In this document: positions 7,388-38,770 of the stretch, piece after piece
Layout: every line of letters begins with the position of its first letter
How positions within the stretch are numbered: position 1 is the stretch's first letter
Source: a virus
Taxonomy: Duplodnaviria > Heunggongvirae > Uroviricota > Caudoviricetes
Length of the DNA: 40,062 nucleotides
Reading direction: 5' to 3' (one strand)
Virus record (IMG/VR): IMGVR_UViG_2671180458_000005
Translations under genes and position numbers: made by a program
Notes under the pieces: generated by a model
The model's database searches: none
What the model was told of the DNA's origin: nothing
Seen by the model: only the letters and a program-made list of their open reading frames with translations

Positions 7388-8542
7388 ATGAAAAAAATGA
7401 CAGTGGCACTTTCTGCTGTAGCAGTGGCAGTGATGTTTGCTGCGGGGGCGCAGGCAGCAGAAGTTTATAATAAAGATGGTAATAAACTGGATCTTTACGG
7501 GCGTGCAACCGCTCTGCATTACTTCTCGGATGATAAAGGTAATGACGGAGACCAGACTTATGCTCGTCTCGGCTTTAAAGGCGAAACGCAGATTAATGAT
7601 CAACTGACCGGATTTGGTCAGTGGGAATACCAGTTCTCTGGTAACAAAACGGAATCTGAAGGTTCCGCGGGAAATAAAACCCGTCTGGCATTTGCAGGTC
7701 TGAGATTTGCAGATGTTGGTACCATTGATTACGGACGTAACTATGGTATTGCTTACGATGTCGGATCATATACTGACGTACTGCCTGAGTTTGGTGGTGA
7801 TGGCTGGACGCAGACCGATAACTTTATGACGGCCCGAACTTCCGGTGTCCTGACATACCGTAATACAGACTTCTTCGGACTGGTTGATGGTCTGAATTTT
7901 GCGGCGCAGTATCAGGGCAAAAATGAGCGTGATGACCTTCAGAAGGCTAATGGCGACGGGTATGGTTTCTCGGCCAGCTATGAGTTTGATGGTTTTGGTT
8001 TTGTCGCTGCGTATACCAAGTCAGATCGTACTGATAAGCAGGTTCAGGGGTTGAATGGTACTGCAGATGTTCTTGATCCTGCATCAGGTAAAAAGGTTGG
8101 AGAAAAAGCAGTTGACTCAGGTAGTGTGGCAAAAGGTAAACATGCTGAATTCTGGGGAACTGGTCTTAAATATGATGCCAATAACCTGTATCTGGCAGCA
8201 GTGTATTCTGAAACCCAGAATATGACGACCTTTGGTGATCAAGGTGTTGCGGATAAAGCTCAGAATATCGAAGCCGTTGTTCAGTATCAGTTTGATTTTG
8301 GTCTGCGCCCGTCCCTTGCCTACCTTCAGTCCCGCGGACAGGATGTTATGGTTGGTGGTGTGAACCATGGCGATCAGGATCTGGTTAAATATATTGATGT
8401 CGGTGCGACTTATTACTTTAACAAGAATATGTCCACCTATGTTGATTATAAAATTAACCTGATTGATGAAAGTGAATTTACCCGGAAAGCCGGTGTTGCG
8501 ACAGATAATATCGTTGCTGTGGGTATGACTTATCAGTTCTGA
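7388..8542 (+). CDS. OmpC/OmpF-family general porin (phage-borne moron)
   Basis: 384 aa; signal peptide ending AQA then [15 protein letters not shown]...; internal PEFGGD and [14 protein letters not shown] motifs and C-terminal ...VGMTYQF; AT-rich 200-bp upstream region; lies between M and L. Confidence 0.9.
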
Positions 8543-11090: not shown

Positions 11091-11122
11091 ACAGGCACCC
11101 TCCGGGGTGCCTGTTGTTTTTG
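11091..11122 (+). terminator. Rho-independent terminator immediately upstream of J
   Basis: ACAGGCACCC-TCCG-GGGTGCCTGT followed by TGTTTTT. Confidence 0.7.
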
Positions 11123-11164
11123 GGCATAAACAGATTAAGACATCAGACAGGAGTGGGGGACAGA

Positions 11165-14100
11165 GTGGGTAAAGGGGGCGGCAAGGGGCACACACCGCGT
11201 GAGGCGAAGGACAATCTCAAGTCAACGCAGATGATGAGCGTGATTGATGCCATTGGTGAGGGACCGGTGGAAGGCCCGGTGAAGGGACTGCAGAGTATTC
11301 TGGTGAACAAAACCCCGCTGACGGACACGGACGGTAATCCCGTGATACACGGTGTGACCGCCGTCTGGCGTGCCGGGGAGCAGGAGCAGACACCGCCGGA
11401 AGGCTTTGAGTCCTCCGGGGCGGAAACCGCACTGGGCGTGGAGGTGACGAAGGCAAAGCCGGTGACGCGCACCATCACGTCAGCGAACATTGACCGTCTG
11501 CGGGTCACCTTCGGGGTGCAGTCACTGGTGGAGACCACCTCAAAGGGTGACCGTAATCCCTCTTCTGTCCGCCTGCTGATTCAGCTTGAGCGTAACGGGC
11601 ACTGGGTGACGGAGAAGGATGTCACCATTAACGGCAAGACCACCTCGCAGTACCTGACGTCGGTGATTCTGAATAATCTCCCTGAGCGCCCCTTTAACAT
11701 CCGGATGGTCAGGGAGACGGCGGACAGCACCACGGACCAGCTGCAGAACAGAACGCTGTGGTCGTCATACACCGAAATCATCGATGTGAAACAGTGCTAC
11801 CCGAACACGGCCATTGTGGGGCTGCAGGTGGATGCGGAGCAGTTCGGTGGCCAGCAGATGGTGGTGAACTACCATATCCGCGGCCGCATCATTCAGGTGC
11901 CGTCAAACTATGACCCGGAAAAACGCACCTACAGCGGTATCTGGGACGGGAGTCTGAAACCGGCATACAGCAATAACCCGGCCTGGTGCCTGTGGGACAT
12001 GCTGACCCACCCGCGCTACGGCATGGGAAAACGCCTGGGGGCCGCGGATGTGGACAAGTGGGCACTGTATGCCATCGGGCAGTACTGTGACCAGACGGTC
12101 CCGGATGGTTTCGGGGGAACAGAGCCGCGGATGACTTTCAATGCGTACCTGTCACAGCAGCGTAAGGTGTGGGATGTCCTGGGGGATTTCTGCTCGGCGA
12201 TGCGCTGTATGCCGGTATGGAACGGCCAGACGCTGACGTTCGTTCAGGACCGTCCGTCGGATGTGGTGTGGCCGTACACGAACAGCGATGTGGTGGTGGA
12301 TGATAACGGCGTGGGGTTCCGCTACAGCTTCAGTGCCCTGAAGGACCGGCACACGGCGGTGGAGGTGAATTACACCGACCCGCAGAACGGCTGGCAGACT
12401 TCCACTGAACTGGTGGAAGACCCGGACGCCATCCTGCGCTACGGGCGCAATCTGCTGAAGATGGATGCGTTTGGCTGTACCAGCCGCGGTCAGGCCCACC
12501 GTGCCGGACTGTGGGTGATAAAGACAGAACTGCTGGAAACGCAGACGGTGGATTTCACGCTCGGGTCACAGGGGCTGCGGCACACGCCCGGTGACATCAT
12601 TGAAATCTGTGATAACGACTATGCCGGGACCCTGACCGGTGGACGTATCCTGTCCATCGATGCCGCCAGCCGTACCCTGACGCTGGACCGTGAGGTGACA
12701 CTGCCGGAAGCAGGGACATCGACGGTGAACCTGATTAACGGCAGCGGTAAGCCGGTGCGCGTGGACATCACTGCACACCCCGCCCCGGACCGGATACAGG
12801 TCAGCGCCCTGCCGGATGGCGTGGAGACATACGGTGTGTGGGGACTCTCCCTGCCGTTACTGCGTCGTCGCCTGTTCCGCTGTGTTTCCATCCGGGAAAA
12901 CACGGACGGCACCTTTGCCATCACGGCAGTGCAGCACGTACCGGAAAAAGAAGCCATCGTGGATAACGGGGCCAGCTTTGAGCCGCTCTCCGGCTCACTG
13001 AACAGCGTTATCCCGCCGGCTGTGCAGCACCTCACGGTGGAGGTGAGTGCCTCAGACGGCCAGTATCTGGCGCTGGCGAAATGGGACACGCCGCGGGTGG
13101 TGAAGGGCGTGCGCTTCAGTCTGCGCCTGACCAGTGGCAGTGGTGAAAACAGCCGCCTGGTGACCACCGCCATCACTGCCGACACGGAGCACCGTTTCAG
13201 TGGCCTGCCGCCCGGGGAATACACCCTGACGGTCAGGGCGATAAACAGCTACGGCCGGCAGGGCGAACCTGCCACCACCACATTCCGGATTAATGCGCCT
13301 GCAGCACCGGCCAGCATTGAGCTGACGCCGGGGTATTATCAGATAACAGCAGTACCGGTGCTGGCGGTGTATGACCCGACGGTACAGTATGAATTCTGGT
13401 TCTCAGAAAAACGCATCACGGACATGGCACAGGTGGAAACCTCTGCCCGTTATCTGGGGACAGGCAGCCAGTGGAGTGTCTCCGGCCCGCACATTAAGCC
13501 GGGGAAGGATTTCTGGTTTTATGTGCGCAGCGTCAACCTGGTGGGGAAATCTGCGTTTGTGGAAGCCAGTGGCCGGGCCAGCAATGATGCGGAAGGGTAT
13601 CTGGGGCTGTTTCGGGAAAAGATAGGAAAACTGCATCTGGCACAGGGGATGTGGGAGCTGATTGATAACAGCCAGCTTGACGATGAGATGGCGGAGATGA
13701 AGACCACCATCACCGAAACCCGCAATGAAATCACGCAGACGGTCAGTAAAACCCTGGAAGACCAGAGTGCCACCATACAGCAGATACAGCGGGTGCAGAC
13801 AGACACAAATAACGACCTGGCTGCGCTGTACATGCTGAAGGTGCAGAAAACGAAAAACGGCATTCCGTATGTTGCCGGTATAGGTGCGGGGATTGAGGAT
13901 GCTGATGGTCAGCCCCTGAGCAATATACTGCTGCAGGCGGACCGTATCGCGATGATTAACCCGGAGAACGGCAACACCACGCCGCTGTTTGTGGCGCAGG
14001 GGAATCAGCTGTTCATGAACGATGTGTTCCTGAAGCGACTGTTTGCAGTGAGCATCACCTCGTCCGGCAATCCCCCGACGTTCTCCCTGACGCCGGAGGG

Positions 14101-14632
14101 CAGGCTGACGGCCCGCAATGCTGACATCAGCGGACATATCAGTGCGAACTCGGGCACGCTCAATAATGTCGTGATAGCGGAGAACTGTACGATAAATGGC
14201 ACGCTGAAAGCGGAGAACATTATTGGTGATCTTGTGAAATGTGCAGGGGTGGCTTTTCCGGTGGATGGTAGTTACCTTGCGAACGGTACACGAACGCTGA
14301 CGGTGTATGACGATCACAGCTTTGACCGGCAGATTATAATCCCGCCGATAATCTATGTCGGGTCAAAACAGGAATCCCGTACCAGTAATGACATCTGGAC
14401 AGAGTGCTTCCTGCATGTTGATCAGAACGGACGCCGGATTTATTCCGGCAGGTCAGTGACAGAGCCGGGAATTTTCAGCGGGATCATCGATATGCCAGCC
14501 GGTCATGGTCATATCACCCTGAGTTTTACCGTAAGTTCACGACGTCAGAACGGGAGTTTTGGCAGTTCACGTATCAGTAACCTTCAGGCGATAGTGGTGA
14601 AGAAAAACAGCGCGGGGATCAGCATCCGCTGA
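11165..14632 (+). CDS. J: Tail tip host-specificity protein J
   Basis: GTG start at 11165 giving (M)[21 protein letters not shown], matching lambda J N-terminus as recalled; GGAG 11 nt upstream; about 1155 aa; C-terminal ~150 aa look divergent from lambda J. Confidence 0.85.
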
Positions 14633-14831
14633 ACATCGCGCCCCGGGATTGCCGGAAGGAGACAAAAACCGTACATTATGCGCGGGTGCCTTTGGCTGAT
14701 GGCCGGAGGGAACACCTGAAGGCCGGAAAGACGAAGGCCCCGGACAAACATTCATGTTTAACCCGAGGCCTGACGTTCCTACCTTCAACAAGTGGAAGGT
14801 TAGCGCCTCTCCGTAAAAGGAGCAAGCGTTT

Positions 14832-14972
14832 ATGTCGCAAAAACCGTTAAAAACCACCGTGATTTGTATCACGGTAGTGCTCATTATCTGGATCACCCAC
14901 ACTTCACTGTGCGAGTTCCGGTTCCGGATAGCGGGCGCGGAGATTGCGGCGTTCTTACAGTGTAAGCAGTAA
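14832..14972 (+). CDS. Hok/Gef-family type I toxin (small membrane peptide)
   Basis: 46 aa MSQKPLKTTVICITVVLIIWITHTSLCEFRFRIAGAEIAAFLQCKQ; N-terminal TM helix plus C-terminal LCE-RFR-G-E-AAF motif as in HokB; AAGGAG 8 nt upstream; not in supplied ORF track (under 60 aa). Confidence 0.75.
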   Translation: MSQKPLKTTVICITVVLIIWITHTSLCEFRFRIAGAEIAAFLQCKQ

Positions 14973-15066
14973 GAAACCGTGGCGGGGGAGAATATCCCCC
15001 GCCGACCGGTTGCTGAGGGTGGTCAGCCGGACGGCACCGTTTTAGCACCAACAAACCACAAATTTT

Positions 15067-15101
15067 ACCGCAGGCCGGGAAACCGGTACTGCGGTTTTTT
15101 T
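15067..15101 (+). terminator. Rho-independent terminator between hok-like gene and stf
   Basis: ACCGCAGGCCGGGAAACCGGTACTGCGGT followed by TTTTTTT. Confidence 0.65.
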
Positions 15102-15114
15102 ATGGGGGAAATCC

Positions 15115-16515
15115 ATGACAGTCAGAATATCGGGTGTGCTGAAGGATGGTACGGGAAAAGCGGTACCGGGATGCACGATAGAGCTGAAAGCGCGCCGTAC
15201 AACGGAGACGGTGATTGTCACCACGGTGGCGTATGGTCAGCCGGGGGAAACCGGCAGTTACAGTATGGATGTTGAGCCCGGGTTATACCGGGTGACGCTG
15301 AACACGGAAGGGTACGCGCCGTCATATGTGGGTGACATTCTGGTGAAAGCGGATTCTGCACCGGGAACGCTGAATAAATTTCTGATGGACCTGGAAGACG
15401 CACCGTATTACCCGAAAGCCCTTGCAGAGCTGGAAGCGGTGGCAGCGGAAATCCTGAAACGTGCGGAAGCCTCCGCAGCCAGTGCGGAGGAGGCAAAAAA
15501 ACGGGCAGAGAATGCGCGGGGACCGAAGGGGGATAAGGGGGACACCGGGCCGCAGGGTATTCCCGGGCCAAAAGGCGATACCGGCGAGCGGGGGCCAAAG
15601 GGTGAGCGTGGTGAGACAGGACCACAGGGGCTTCAGGGTGTGAAAGGTGAACGGGGAGAGAAGGGCGAAAAAGGCGAGCCGGGAGGGCCGGATGCGACGA
15701 CGGCACAGAAGGGAATTGTGCAGTTAAGCAGCGCAACGGACAGTGATGATGAAACGAAGGCAGCCACCCTGAAAGCGGTGAAAGCGGCAATGGACAAAGC
15801 GGACGGATGCCTGGAGAAAGCGAAAAACGGTGACGATATCCCGGATAAGGTGAAGTTTCTGAACACCGTGGGAGCAGCCAGAGTATACGGGCGGGACATT
15901 CATACGGGGGCCGGTGAATGGACCACGAGTGAGTTTGTGGCCTGGCTGAAAGAAAAGGGGGCATTTGACCAGCCTTACTGGATGATGAAGGCATCACTGC
16001 TTGCGGAATTTAATAAGGTCATCACGGATGTCGGACCGGGAAAACTCAATCTGGGAGGCTGCGCCATTGAGGTGATGGGGACGTATAACGCAGCCATAGT
16101 CCGGGTCACCATCGGCGAATACGGTGGCGATGGTTTTCTGAACGGCACGGTCTGTACCTGTACAGTTTACGGAGACACACAACGTTTTCACTGGCGGGTG
16201 GATTACAGCACAAAAAACAAGCCCACAACAGCAAGCCTGACAGTAAATGGCTGGGAGCGTGATGAAGTAACCGGTCGTTTGCGGCAATGGGGCAGTATTG
16301 AGGTAAGTGAGGATGATGGTAAGCTTATGACACAACACTCTATCCGTTTTCCTGTCGCTTTTCCGGTTGCTGCTCTGAATGCTCAGGTGTCTGCAGTGGG
16401 AGACCCCAACGTCATTAAGATGTATACCCTGTCGAATCCGTCATTAGTGTCTGTGACTCTGATAACAGTCAGGGGATGCTACGGCAAGTTTTCATGGGAA
16501 GCGATCGGATACTGA
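15115..16515 (+). CDS. stf: Side tail fiber protein with collagen-like Gly-X-Y repeats
   Basis: N-terminus [28 protein letters not shown] matches lambda Stf N-terminus as recalled; [37 protein letters not shown] repeats; [10 protein letters not shown] motif. Confidence 0.85.
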
Positions 16516-25449: not shown

Positions 25450-25929
25450 GATGGCAGCCTCGATAGTCAGTTTAAATAACTCACCACCAAGGCTTTCCAC
25501 GACCATAAGGGTGGTGAGACGTACAGGGGTGGAAATACCGGTGACTACCGAAACCGGCCAGCCTTTCGGCTGCCCTGCACGCCCCACCATAATCTGAATG
25601 TGGCTGTGCATTACGCATAAAAAAACCGCCTGAGCGCGGTTATGCGCAGTAGTCATCATCGGGTTTCCACGCCCGGCACCCGCTTTATGAGGTGCAGGTG
25701 CACTATAATTCCACCCATTCTGGTTTTCAATAGCTACATTCAACATTTTCTCTTACCCTTCATCACCGAAGTGAACTTTGTTGATGCAGTGCCTGGTGCC
25801 TCCAGGTGACGTTAACCAGTTAACAATTAACGCCGGATTGTTAGTTGATGTCTGTTACGCCAGTAAAAGACCGCTTGTTTTAACTGTTCCGCGTGCGCTT
25901 AGCCGCATTCACCGCATCACAAAATTCAC

Positions 25930-25992
25930 TTTAAAAAGGGTGGCAGAGCAGTCACGGAGTAGAACTGATGCCACCAAAGACTACACATGGGT
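25930..25992 (-). ncRNA. dicF: DicF-like small RNA
   Basis: Minus strand reads ...UCAGUUCUACUCCGUGACUGCUCUGCCACCCUUUUU, near-identical to the 3-prime two-thirds of E. coli DicF as recalled, including terminator hairpin and U-run; downstream flank also matches; 5-prime end less conserved and not mapped. Confidence 0.65.
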
Positions 25993-37455: not shown

Positions 37456-37531
37456 GGCCCTTTAGCTCAGTGGTGAGAGCGAGCGACTCATAATCGCCAG
37501 GTCGCTGGTTCAAATCCAGCAAGGGCCACCA
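37456..37531 (+). tRNA. tRNA with CAU anticodon (Ile2-lysidine type or Met), ileZ-like
   Basis: 76 nt; acceptor GGCCCTT/AAGGGCC; anticodon loop CTCATAA; T-loop GGTTCAAATCC; ends CCA. Confidence 0.8.
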
Positions 37532-37540
37532 TATCACATA

Positions 37541-37617
37541 CCGCCATTAGCTCATCGGGATAGAGCGTCAGCCTTCGAAGCTGGTTGCGCGGGGTTCGAG
37601 TCCTCGATGGCGGTCCA
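37541..37617 (+). tRNA. tRNA-Arg (anticodon UCG), argN-like
   Basis: 77 nt; acceptor CCGCCAT/ATGGCGG; anticodon loop CTTCGAA; GGTTCGAGTCC T-arm; ends CCA. Confidence 0.7.
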
Positions 37618-37630
37618 TTATCGGTATTCA

Positions 37631-37707
37631 GCGTTGTTAGCTCAGCCGGACAGAGCAATTGCCTTCTAAGCAATCGGTCACTGGTTCGAATCCAGTACAA
37701 CGCGCCA
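37631..37707 (+). tRNA. tRNA-Arg (anticodon UCU), argO-like
   Basis: 77 nt; acceptor GCGTTGT/ACAACGC; anticodon loop CTTCTAA; GGTTCGAATCC T-arm; ends CCA. Confidence 0.8.
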
Positions 37708-38469: not shown

Positions 38470-38717
38470 CCGGGTATCAGTCATGCCCCGAAAATTTTAA
38501 ATGTCTCACAATTCAGACGGTTGACAGTTGTCTGTTTTGCGGGGAGTTTGTTAAAAGAAACAGGCATGGTGAATCCCCCTGAGCGGAGGGGCGACTGGTG
38601 CATTAGGTGTTATCTTTGATACCCAGGAAAGTAAACGCGCGGGTTTGGTGGCACCGGGCTGAACTCACCGGGAGGCACCCGGCATCATGCGCATGATGAT
38701 ACAGATACGCGGCTTTA

Positions 38718-38741
38718 GCCCCTCTCCGGAGGGGCTTTTAT
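38718..38741 (+). terminator. Rho-independent terminator
   Basis: GCCCCTC-TCCG-GAGGGGC followed by TTTTATAT. Confidence 0.6.
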
Positions 38742-38770
38742 ATGAATTTTGTAAGATATGAGTAAACTAA

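What the first reader, a model, noticed from the sequence alone, without database searches (positions are those of the whole stretch)
14633..15114. Hok/Gef-family type I toxin in the lom position between J and stf
A 46-aa ORF missed by the ORF track has the Hok architecture (TM helix plus LCEFRFR-G-EIAAF motif) with a strong SD. A 20-codon ORF (ATG 14759) ends 17 nt before it, reminiscent of mok-type coupling. A terminator follows. Type I toxins in phage late regions could serve addiction or abortive infection; an antisense sok-like RNA would be expected but is not identified here.
Basis: partly seen in the sequence, partly recalled or inferred. Interest (0 to 1): 0.55.

Follow-up and report, generated by a model that had tools for sequence, protein, structure and literature searches.

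The report
Hok/Sok toxin–antitoxin cassette in prophage
The short gene between the tail genes J and stf of this lambda-like E. coli prophage is a real Hok-family membrane toxin with its antisense-RNA antidote; databases already annotate the toxin, so it is an ordinary member of a well-known system.

Summary
Observation confirmed. ORF 14832-14972 (+) encodes a 46-aa peptide that passes Pfam HOK_GEF (42.2 bits against a cut-off of 22) and PHROG 251. Identical DNA in E. coli STEC1585 is annotated by RefSeq as "Hok/Gef family protein".

The whole cassette (14633-15101) has hok/sok anatomy:
- an own promoter;
- a leader matching Rfam RF01794 (57.6 bits, cut-off 59);
- long-range 5'-3' mRNA end pairing with compensatory changes;
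- a terminator.

Its -10 (TAACCT) and hairpin are conserved in all 33 homologues checked.

The 20-codon upstream ORF exists, but its ATG is at 14754 and the gap to hok is 15 nt. Its length is not conserved, so mok-type coupling is doubtful.

Related phages (P-EibA, PhiR5_1) carry lom in the same J-stf slot.

The closest relative is an unstudied second hok locus just after lom in Stx phages, not the characterised hokW-sokW. The published "microRNA-size" 24B_1 RNA of phage Φ24B maps onto that locus's Sok-like hairpin.

Verdict: a known kind, already annotated, low interest. Two side points are modestly new: the link to 24B_1 and the decay of mok.

The parts
14649..14654 (+). -35 hexamer TTGCCG of the inferred hok mRNA promoter
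   Evidence: ATTGCC is invariant between the window, phage 1720a-02 and the Stx-phage locus. It lies 17 nt upstream of the -10. Inferred; below the scanner's threshold.
14672..14677 (+). -10 hexamer TACATT of the inferred hok mRNA promoter
   Evidence: The column reads TAnnnT (TACATT/TAGAAT/TAGATT/TAAATT/TACAGT) in nearly all of 34 homologues, 6-7 nt upstream of the conserved GGGTGCC. The 933W hokW locus aligns here with GTAGAAT.
14684..15101 (+). Predicted full-length hok mRNA, from the start of the Rfam model to the end of the terminator T-run
   Evidence: Rfam RF01794 model position 1 aligns at 14684. The 14684-15103 stretch folded has MFE -187.6 kcal/mol and z -8.3. On 34 homologues the structure is 79% paired, against 35-45% in slid controls.
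14685..14700 (+). 5' end-pairing element (tac-like), GGUGCCUUUGGCUGAU
   Evidence: Pairs with 15022-15038 in the MFE structure. Helix 1 is 98% paired and helix 2 is 87% paired, with 4 pairs changed on both sides.
14725..14790 (-). Predicted Sok-like antisense RNA (about 65 nt): a variable single-stranded 5' tail, a GC-rich hairpin (14737-14769) and a U-rich 3' end
   Evidence: Fold -28 kcal/mol, z -3.4. The same architecture is found in 33 of 33 homologues. Its position relative to the hok ATG (-107 to -42) matches the annotated sokW of 933W (-119 to -49). The Φ24B RNA 24B_1 maps to the homologous hairpin. The ends are inferred.
14797..14802 (-). -10 hexamer TAACCT of the sok-like promoter (AGGTTA on the + strand)
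   Evidence: TAACCT in 31 and TATCCT in 2 of 33 homologues. It is identical to the -10 box CGCTAACCT predicted for p24B_1 in Φ24B (PMC4426718).
14820..14825 (-). -35 hexamer TTGCTC of the sok-like promoter, overlapping the hok Shine-Dalgarno region
   Evidence: 17-nt spacing to the -10. TTGnnn or TTTACT in most homologues; the Stx-phage clade has TTGACT, the box named in PMC4426718.
14754..14816 (+). 20-codon leader ORF (MFNPRPDVPTFNKWKVSASP), probably a truncated remnant of mok
   Evidence: The same ATG gives ORFs of 10, 13, 20, 31 or 69 codons in relatives with the J-hok-stf arrangement, and is ACG, CTG or TAC in many others. No Pfam hit.
14780..14795 (+). Variable Sok-target segment of the leader. 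It is sequestered by pairing with 15006-15021 in the full-length fold and sits in a hairpin loop in the 3'-truncated fold.
   Evidence: Helix 8 has 14 pairs, 7 of them with changes on both sides, and is 81% paired. Truncated fold.
14818..14823 (+). Shine-Dalgarno AAGGAG of hok
   Evidence: Read from the sequence. It pairs with the upstream GCGCCUCUCC in the predicted structure (helix 10, 86% paired).
14832..14972 (+). hok-family toxin CDS, 46 aa
   Evidence: Pfam PF01848, 42.2 bits against 22. PHROG 251. RefSeq WP_000078854.1 'Hok/Gef family protein' on identical DNA. Median dN/dS 0.26.
14981..15003 (+). Hairpin just after the stop codon, GGCGGGGGA-GAAUA-UCCCCCGCC
   Evidence: Helices 19 and 20 are 85-93% paired, with 3 pairs changed on both sides.
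15022..15038 (+). 3' end-pairing element (fbi-like), ending in GGCACC
   Evidence: Partner of 14685-14700. GGCACC is invariant and the neighbouring pairs covary.
15068..15101 (+). Intrinsic terminator (CCGCAGGCCGG-GAAA-CCGGUACUGCGG plus U7), 13 nt before the stf ATG at 15115
   Evidence: Fold. Its 3' arm and T-run are shared with the lom-to-stf junction of P-EibA and PhiR5_1.

Best explanation
Window 14633-15101 is a self-contained hok/sok-type type I toxin-antitoxin cassette. It is a 'moron' sitting between the tail genes J and stf of a lambdoid E. coli prophage, in the slot that lom fills in related phages.

The + strand makes a roughly 420-nt, highly structured hok mRNA from its own promoter. 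The mRNA encodes a 46-aa Hok-family peptide with one N-terminal membrane helix. By family analogy, this peptide depolarises the inner membrane.

The full-length mRNA is kept inert in three ways: its 5' end (14685-14700) pairs with a 3' element (15022-15038), the Sok-target segment pairs with the 3' UTR, and the SD/AUG region is paired.

The minus strand makes a roughly 65-nt Sok-like RNA from a promoter that overlaps the hok SD. Its variable 5' tail is complementary to the leader 42-62 nt upstream of the hok AUG.

By analogy with R1 hok/sok and 933W hokW/sokW, the unstable antisense RNA pairs with the 3'-processed, refolded mRNA and blocks or destroys it. When Sok synthesis stops (prophage loss, host transcription shut-off by a superinfecting phage, or induction), Hok is made.

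Shown here: family membership of the peptide, the leader homology, the conserved and covarying mRNA structure, the conserved antisense promoter and hairpin, and the slot exchange with lom.

Inferred: transcript ends, toxicity, the repression mechanism, and the biological role. For the role I rank a prophage-benefit function first (addiction and/or exclusion of other phages, possibly a lysis assist on induction).
For: - Pfam HOK_GEF, 42.2 bits against a cut-off of 22; PHROG 251 'MokW-like host killing', E 4e-21.
- 100% identical DNA in STEC1585 is annotated Hok/Gef family protein between J and the tail fibre.
- Rfam RF01794 matches full length (1-157) on the hok-sense strand at 14684-14843, 57.6 bits, E 6e-12.
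- The stretch 14684-15103 folds with z = -8.3 and 5'-3' end pairing.
- On 34 non-redundant homologues the structure is 79% paired, against 35-45% for slid controls. It has 181 cells with changes on both sides, against 37-67 for the controls. Covarying pairs occur in the end-pairing helix, the target helix and the post-stop hairpin.
- The antisense promoter (-10 TAACCT or TATCCT) and hairpin are present in 33 of 33 homologues, with a variable 5' tail.
- An antisense RNA from the homologous spot of Φ24B was sequenced (2223 reads) and its promoter was predicted at the same boxes (PMC4426718).
- The 3'-truncated mRNA refolds so that the target segment lies in a hairpin loop.
- Median dN/dS of the CDS is 0.26.
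- lom occupies the same slot in P-EibA and PhiR5_1.
- The paralogous hokW/sokW is experimentally a type I TA pair (PMC8621323).
Against: - No expression or toxicity data exist for this locus or its subfamily.
- The Rfam score is 1.4 bits below the gathering threshold.
- NCBIfam Hok models score far below their cut-offs: 37-38 bits against 73-89.
- Both promoters are weak matches to consensus, and the scanner reported none.
- There is no conserved mok frame, and mok is essential for Hok translation and Sok control in the R1 paradigm. The Sok-like duplex ends about 28 nt upstream of the SD, so the way repression works is not explained by the sequence.
- Many chromosomal hok loci are known to be inactive (cited in bioRxiv 10.1101/2025.08.07.668861).
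- The published Φ24B work interprets the antisense RNA differently, as a trans-acting microRNA-like molecule.
Confidence: 0.85

Rival explanations
1. The cassette is a decaying, non-functional hok/sok relic. The peptide gene and RNA structures persist by descent, but without a working mok the toxin is never translated, as has been proposed for several chromosomal hok loci of E. coli K-12.
For: The leader ORF is cut to 20 codons here and to 6-13 codons in most relatives. Only 3 of 63 unique sequences keep a 69-codon mok-like frame. In most homologues all three frames are closed 5-44 nt upstream of hok. The inactivity of chromosomal hok loci is noted in the introduction of bioRxiv 10.1101/2025.08.07.668861.
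Against: The hok CDS is intact in every full-length homologue and is under purifying selection (dN/dS 0.26). Long-range helices keep pairing through compensatory changes, and the antisense promoter is invariant. Such maintenance across E. coli, Salmonella and other hosts is not expected of a dead locus. The SD is strong, and a ribosome could load directly once the mRNA refolds.
Confidence: 0.15
2. The cassette is mainly a lysis or late-gene accessory. Q-antiterminated late transcription runs through J into hok and collides with the convergent sok promoter, so Hok is made late in induction and speeds host lysis and phage release. This is the role reported for hokW-sokW of Sp5. Prophage addiction or defence would then be secondary.
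For: hok lies on the late-operon strand, directly after J and before stf. hokW-sokW doubles Sp5 release after mitomycin C, and SokW disappears on induction (PMC8621323). The Φ24B deletion that removes the homologous leader and sok region alters induction timing and burst (PMC4426718 abstract).
Against: The cassette carries its own promoter and terminator, so it looks like a lysogen-expressed moron in the way lom is. In Φ24B the deletion gave more, not fewer, progeny, and the antisense RNA was detected 80 min after induction rather than lost. There are no data for this locus.
Confidence: 0.3
3. The minus-strand RNA is primarily a trans-acting regulatory sRNA or 'microRNA-size' molecule that controls other phage or host genes, as proposed for 24B_1. 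On this reading the adjacent small ORF is incidental.
For: The published 24B_1 work reports phenotypes of deletion and overproduction, Hfq binding of the 80-nt precursor, and weak pairing with sdhB mRNA (PMC4426718, PMC10732415).
Against: The 20-nt 24B_1 sequence is not conserved in the window; the hairpin apex differs. What is conserved is the hok/sok architecture. The 189-nt Φ24B deletion also removed the hok promoter, leader and part of the SD (primers compared), so its phenotypes cannot be assigned to the sRNA alone. Those papers never considered hok (0 mentions).
Confidence: 0.1

Closest known systems
Unstudied second hok locus immediately downstream of lom in Stx-converting phages (933W 45490-45872 'L0129', Φ24B 45615-45996, Shigella phage 75/02 Stx gp62 'MokW-like host killing')
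   Same: About 76.5% nucleotide identity over 383 nt. The 46-aa peptide has the same ends (MSQK...AAFLQCKQ). The leader, the end-pairing boxes GGGUGCC/GGCACC and the sok -10 are the same. Both lie in the late region next to tail and lom genes.
   Different: There it follows lom (31 of the loci fetched). Here it replaces lom between J and stf (35 loci). The variable antisense target and hairpin apex differ. The Stx-phage copies lack the strong terminator, and the next gene starts at the fbi region.
hokW-sokW(-mokW) of 933W / Sakai prophage 5 (Takada et al. 2021, PMC8621323)
   Same: A prophage-borne hok/sok module in a lambdoid STEC phage, with the same overall layout (-10, GCGGGTGC 5' end, antisense gene upstream of hok). 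It has been shown experimentally to be a type I TA pair.
   Different: It is a paralogue, not the orthologue. It lies about 13 kb away in 933W on the other strand. HokW is 51 aa and only 41% identical over 34 residues. It has an annotated 70-aa mokW overlapping hokW, which the window lacks.
hok/sok (parB) of plasmid R1, the paradigm of the family (Gerdes laboratory; from established knowledge, and summarised in PMC8621323 and PMC5488031)
   Same: A Hok/Gef peptide, a cis-antisense RNA against the leader, 5'-3' mRNA end pairing (tac/fbi) that keeps the full-length mRNA inert, and a terminator hairpin. The leader matches the Rfam model built on this family.
   Different: R1 needs the overlapping mok frame for Hok translation and for Sok control. 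Here mok is truncated or absent. The cassette sits in a phage late operon rather than on a plasmid. 3' processing has not been shown.
24B_1 'microRNA-size' RNA and its 80-nt precursor of phage Φ24B (PMC4426718, PMC10732415)
   Same: It is transcribed from the strand antisense to the hok leader of the homologous locus. Its predicted promoter boxes (TTGACT / CGCTAACCT) are the sok-like promoter found here.
   Different: It was published as a trans-acting regulator and never linked to hok/sok. The 20-nt sequence itself is not conserved in the window.
lom of phage lambda and of P-EibA / PhiR5_1
   Same: It occupies the same insertion slot, between the J stop codon and the terminator, T-run and SD of stf. 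Both are moron-type cargo.
   Different: Lom is an unrelated Ail/Lom outer-membrane protein of about 200 aa. There is no sequence similarity to the hok cassette.

Membership tests
Hok/Gef toxin family (Pfam PF01848) | Profile match above the curated gathering score | tested here: met
   42.2 bits against 22, E 6.1e-11, profile positions 8-42 of 42. PHROG 251, E 4e-21.
Hok/Gef toxin family (Pfam PF01848) | Peptide of about 50 aa with a basic N-terminus, one hydrophobic helix, then a conserved polar C-terminal part containing the LCE motif | tested here: met
   Read from the sequence: K4 and K7, then TTVICITVVLIIWIT, then SLCEFRFRIAGAEIAAFLQCKQ. S25, C27, A36-C44 and K45 are invariant in the subfamily.
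Hok/Gef toxin family (Pfam PF01848) | Kills or arrests the cell when expressed, by damaging the inner membrane | not testable with these tools
   Needs an inducible-expression assay. Shown only for the paralogue HokW (PMC8621323).
HokA orthologue group (NCBIfam NF007290) and generic Hok subfamily (NF007279) | Score above NCBI's curated cut-off | tested here: not met
   37.9 against 89 and 37.1 against 73. The peptide is therefore a distinct Hok subfamily, not HokA-E.
[quoted passage not shown] | Leader RNA matches the family covariance model (Rfam RF01794) | tested here: inconclusive
   Full-length match, 57.6 bits, E 6e-12, but the gathering score is 59. The match is on the hok-sense strand.
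[quoted passage not shown] | Cis-encoded antisense RNA gene (own promoter, hairpin terminator) opposite the toxin leader | tested here: met
   Conserved -10/-35 and hairpin in 33 of 33 homologues; fold z -3.4. The position equals that of the annotated sokW. RNA has been detected at the homologous Φ24B site. Expression from this window itself was not tested.
[quoted passage not shown] | Long-range pairing of the mRNA 5' end (tac) with a 3' element (fbi) | tested here: met
   14685-14700 pairs with 15022-15038 in the MFE structure. The pairing is 87-98% conserved, with 4 compensatory pairs.
[quoted passage not shown] | Overlapping mok reading frame whose translation is coupled to hok and is the direct target of Sok | tested here: not met
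   In the window the only candidate is a 20-codon ORF that ends 15 nt before hok. No overlapping frame with ATG, GTG or TTG is conserved. The same ATG gives 69 codons in only 3 of 63 relatives.
[quoted passage not shown] | Slow 3' processing of the stable mRNA triggers refolding, Sok binding or translation | not testable with these tools
   There is only an in-silico hint: the 3'-truncated RNA refolds and places the target segment in a loop.
Phage 'moron' (independent cargo cassette in a late operon) | Own promoter and terminator, inserted between two conserved late genes, with alternative cargo in relatives | tested here: met
   Terminator; inferred promoter; lom in the same slot in P-EibA and PhiR5_1, with shared junctions. 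There is no GC anomaly.

The most novel reading that the evidence does not exclude
The 'lom-slot' Hok subfamily (46 aa, ...AAFLQCKQ) may be a hok/sok lineage that works without a mok frame. On this reading, Sok control would act by RNase III cleavage, by blocking a standby or refolding step, or through a short leader ORF. Its antitoxin would be the RNA published as the Φ24B 'microRNA' 24B_1 precursor. The lysogeny and induction phenotypes attributed to that microRNA would then be, at least partly, consequences of deleting a toxin-antitoxin leader.
Probability: 0.45. Interest if true: 0.55.

Novelty: already known. Interest (0 to 1): 0.28.

Why it matters
For annotating this window, the finding settles a gap. 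The J-stf intergenic 'empty' space is a complete toxin-antitoxin moron whose RNA gene and regulatory elements are not annotated in public records, although the peptide is.

Biologically it adds little. Hok genes are already known to be common in E. coli prophages.

Two side results could matter to specialists:
- The subfamily shows frequent loss of the mok frame while all other regulatory structures are kept. This questions how general the mok-coupling model is.
- The Φ24B small RNA 24B_1, discussed in the literature as a bacterial-virus 'microRNA', maps onto the Sok-like antitoxin of the homologous hok locus. The mutant used to study it also removed the hok promoter and leader.

Tried and rejected
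I built an alignment first.
- The consensus promoter scan found no sigma-70 site, and the only terminator it reported was the post-stop hairpin read on the wrong strand. Promoters were therefore inferred from conservation and homology, not from the scanner.
- I first assumed the characterised hokW-sokW was the orthologue. Mapping the published primers showed it is a different locus about 13 kb away in 933W, so that assumption was rejected.
- The 54-aa GTG ORF at 14686-14850 and the 20-aa ORF have no Pfam hit.
- PADLOC has no model that matches the peptide.
- There is no base-composition anomaly across the cassette.
- Only one hok-type leader is present in the 40-kb window.
- I looked for an R1-style alternative pairing of the 5' end with a box just upstream of the SD. 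I did not find a convincing one by eye. The truncated fold instead pairs the 5' end locally with 14731-14741.
- A literature search for any paper linking 24B_1 with hok found only a mini-review that mentions both in separate contexts.
Full report
OBSERVATION.

A 46-codon ORF runs from 14832 to 14972 on the + strand: MSQKPLKTTVICITVVLIIWITHTSLCEFRFRIAGAEIAAFLQCKQ. It is preceded by AAGGAG at 14818-14823.

Two details need correcting. The upstream 20-codon ORF starts at ATG 14754, not 14759. It ends at 14816, which is 15 nt before the hok ATG, not 17.

The ORF is not a chance reading frame.
- Pfam HOK_GEF scores 42.2 bits against a gathering score of 22 (E 6e-11).
- PHROG 251 ('MokW-like host killing') gives E 4e-21.
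- Across 34 non-redundant homologues the median pairwise dN/dS is 0.26.

NCBIfam's HokA and generic Hok models hit but fall far below their cut-offs. The peptide is therefore a separate Hok subfamily, not one of HokA-E.

ALREADY ANNOTATED.

The 482-nt stretch is 100% identical to E. coli STEC1585 (NZ_CP129252). There PGAP annotates WP_000078854.1 'Hok/Gef family protein' between the J-like tail-tip gene and a tail-fibre N-terminal-domain gene. The stretch is 95% identical to phage 1720a-02, where the ORF is called 'hypothetical'.

Of 5426 complete E. coli genomes, 1750 have some match, and 117 records match at 90% identity or more. A recent survey found hok genes four-fold enriched in prophages and counted 6290 of them in IMG/VR (bioRxiv 10.1101/2025.08.07.668861).

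ANATOMY OF THE CASSETTE.

Leader. Rfam RF01794 is named 'sok'. It matched full length (model positions 1-157) on the same strand as hok, at 14684-14843, and the end of the model lies at the hok start. The score is 57.6 bits against a gathering score of 59, with E 6e-12. The hok-type leader is therefore present.

Promoter of the hok mRNA. Upstream of the leader, a TAnnnT hexamer (TACATT, 14672-14677) and ATTGCC (14648-14653) are conserved among homologues. They align with the corresponding boxes of the annotated hokW locus. I read them as the hok promoter, with transcription starting near 14684. This is an inference; the consensus scanner reported nothing.

Fold of the full-length mRNA. The stretch 14684-15103 folds to -187.6 kcal/mol with z = -8.3. 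In that fold:
- the 5' end (14685-14700) pairs with 15022-15038;
- the leader segment 14780-14795 pairs with 15006-15021;
- the AUG region pairs with codons 38-40;
- a GC hairpin follows the stop codon (14981-15003);
- a terminator hairpin with U7 (15068-15101) ends 13 nt before the stf ATG.

Conservation of the fold. I projected this structure onto a MAFFT alignment of 34 homologues that had not been fitted to any structure.
- 79% of cells pair, against 35-45% when the partners are slid by 1-3 columns.
- 181 cells show changes on both sides, against 37-67 for the slid controls.
- Compensatory pairs occur in the end-pairing helix (4 pairs), the target helix (7 pairs) and the post-stop hairpin (3 pairs).
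This long-range 5'-3' pairing corresponds to the tac/fbi principle of hok mRNAs.

Truncated mRNA. When the fbi-like element and terminator are removed, the RNA refolds. The 5' end pairs locally, and the variable segment moves into the loop of a hairpin. That is consistent with the R1 model, in which only the processed mRNA is accessible. Processing itself is not shown here.

THE ANTISENSE RNA.

It is identifiable on the minus strand.
- -35 TTGCTC at 14825-14820.
- -10 TAACCT at 14802-14797, after a 17-nt spacer.
- A start near 14790.
- A single-stranded 5' tail of about 20 nt.
- A GC-rich hairpin (complement of 14737-14769).
- A U-rich end near 14725.
The fold is -28 kcal/mol with z -3.4.

In 33 of 33 homologues the -10 is TAACCT or TATCCT, and the -35 is TTGnnn in most of them. 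The hairpin is kept while its apex varies, and the 5' tail is the most variable part of the whole locus. That is the pattern expected if the tail sets antitoxin specificity. The position relative to the hok ATG (-107 to -42) matches the annotated sokW of 933W (-119 to -49).

LINK TO 24B_1.

Experimental support comes from an unexpected source. The 'microRNA-size' RNA 24B_1 of Stx phage Φ24B has the sequence TAACGTTAAGTTGACTCGGG and lies at residues 45711-45692. Its 80-nt precursor and its predicted promoter boxes, TTGACT and CGCTAACCT, are given in PMC4426718.

24B_1 maps to the minus strand, 73-92 nt upstream of an unannotated 46-aa hok ORF. It therefore lies on the Sok-like hairpin of the locus homologous to ours, and the same promoter boxes are involved.

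Neither 24B_1 paper mentions hok, sok or toxin-antitoxin. In the library searched, no paper links the two.

The published primers show that the 189-nt Δ24B_1 deletion runs from the lom stop codon to just before the hok ATG. It therefore removes the hok promoter, the leader, the sok gene and part of the SD (one search compared).

MOK.

In R1 and in 933W hokW, a frame of about 70 codons (mok) overlaps hok. It is the direct target of Sok. That frame is not conserved here.

In most of the 34 representative homologues, all three frames are closed 5-44 nt upstream of the hok ATG. In those, no ATG, GTG or TTG opens an overlapping frame.

The ORF it opens varies in length among the 63 unique sequences:
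- 10 codons in 13 sequences;
- 13 codons in 7 sequences;
- 20 codons in 2 sequences, including the window;
- 31 codons in 1 sequence;
- 69 codons in 3 sequences (L022, L030, L034), which is a full mok-like frame ending 7 nt before the end of hok.
Outside this group the aligned codon is often ACG, CTG or TAC.

I read the 20-codon ORF as a mok remnant. In the window its stop codon (14814-14816) sits next to the SD, inside the predicted anti-SD/SD helix. Termination-dependent opening of the SD is therefore conceivable for this particular allele. It cannot be the general mechanism of the subfamily.

The Sok-like duplex would end about 28 nt upstream of the SD. How repression works is not explained by the sequence alone. 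Candidates are RNase III cleavage, interference with refolding, or blocking of a standby site.

CONTEXT.

Upstream is a 1172-aa J-type tail-tip ORF that ends at 14632. Downstream is a 466-aa side-tail-fibre gene that starts at 15115.

Among the loci fetched from IMG/VR and elsewhere, the arrangements are as follows:
- 35 show the same J-hok-stf arrangement at the same spacing;
- 31, from Stx phages, have lom-hok;
- 20, from Salmonella and others, have other contexts, some of them at contig ends, and some carry two or three tandem hok copies.

P-EibA and PhiR5_1 have an stf 5' end 88% identical to the window's, and both carry lom between J and stf. Similarity to the window stops at the J stop codon and resumes at the 3' arm and T-run of the terminator before stf. 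The hok/sok cassette and lom are therefore alternative cargoes of one moron slot. There is no compositional anomaly across the cassette.

RELATION TO KNOWN SYSTEMS.

The nearest relative is the second hok locus of Stx phages, just after lom, at about 76.5% identity over 383 nt. It is annotated 'hypothetical' or 'MokW-like host killing'. As far as I could find, it has not been studied as a TA system.

The experimentally characterised hokW-sokW (PMC8621323) is a paralogue. It lies elsewhere in the same phages, and its toxin is 41% identical to ours over 34 residues. That work showed four things:
- HokW is toxic;
- SokW counteracts it;
- HokW is made after mitomycin C in a RecA-dependent way;
- the locus doubles phage release.

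MECHANISM AND ROLE.

I commit to the following mechanism with confidence of about 0.85. The cassette is a hok/sok-type type I TA module. It has a stable, self-inhibited toxin mRNA and a short, cis-encoded antisense antitoxin. The toxin is a membrane-depolarising peptide that is released when antitoxin synthesis stops.

The biological role is inferred only. I rank the candidates in this order:
- a function that benefits the prophage while it is a lysogen (addiction and/or abortive infection against superinfecting phages, as reported for R1 hok/sok against T4 in PMC8621323's discussion);
- a lysis assist on induction;
- a decaying relic.

VERDICT.

The thing itself is a catalogued member of a very well-known system, so interest is low (0.28) and the novelty class is 'already known'.

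Two points would interest a specialist: the loss of mok while every RNA element is maintained, and the mapping of the Φ24B 24B_1 RNA onto the Sok-like antitoxin of the homologous locus.

Noticed in passing
L088 1578-1597 (-) = Φ24B HM208303 45711-45692; hok ORF at L088 1670-1810 (+): The published 20-nt 'microRNA-size' RNA 24B_1 and its 80-nt precursor lie on the Sok-like antisense hairpin of an unannotated 46-aa hok gene just after lom. The promoter boxes predicted for it are the sok-type -35 and -10. The 189-nt Δ24B_1 deletion also removes the hok promoter, leader and part of the SD. The two 24B_1 papers never mention hok/sok.
   Followed up: partly
L041 2008-2148, 2502-2642 and 3001-3141; L043 3001-3141 and 3497-3637: Some IMG/VR contigs of about 35-38 kb, with the hok loci near a contig end, carry two or three tandem hok/sok copies about 495 nt apart. 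Their peptides and antisense-target segments have diverged.
   Followed up: no
L022, L030, L034 (ATG at -76 relative to hok): Three close relatives of the window keep a 69-codon mok-like frame that overlaps almost all of hok. Single-base indels in the variable leader segment cut it to 10-31 codons in the others. The mok frame seems to be lost repeatedly while hok and the RNA structures stay intact.
   Followed up: partly
window 7388-8542 (+): A 384-aa ORF lies inside the tail-gene block. The corresponding gene in STEC1585 is annotated 'porin OmpC'. This would be a second moron in the late operon.
   Followed up: no
window 25507-25989 (-): A cluster of known phage or prophage small RNAs lies on one strand: C4 antisense RNA (25507-25594), isrK (25619-25695), a weak partial STnc100 match (25777-25926) and DicF (25938-25989).
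   Followed up: no
window 37456-37707 and 38535-38747 (+): Three tRNA genes, Met(CAT), Arg(TCG) and Arg(TCT), are followed by a full STnc100 sRNA match (139 bits). From my own knowledge, this layout is typical of the region downstream of Q in Stx-converting phages.
   Followed up: no
L004 (Planococcaceae MAG DEQA01000038) and L005 (Vagococcus sp. NZ_JBQPOM010000071): Genome records labelled as Firmicutes carry an enterobacterial-type hok of this subfamily (63% identity), nearly identical to a Salmonella copy (L006). Contamination or mis-binning is the likely cause.
   Followed up: no
L001 4616-8000 compared with window 11114-14632: The J-type tail-tip gene is annotated as a frameshifted pseudogene in STEC1585. 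In the window it reads as one open 1172-codon frame. The two sequences are offset by 21 nt upstream of the hok cassette.
   Followed up: no
L088 1855-1870; alignment A3 columns 449-520: In the Stx-phage clade the hok locus has no intrinsic terminator after the fbi-like box. The next gene (vb_24B_43, ATG at L088 1867) starts right there. The window clade has a strong terminator instead.
   Followed up: no
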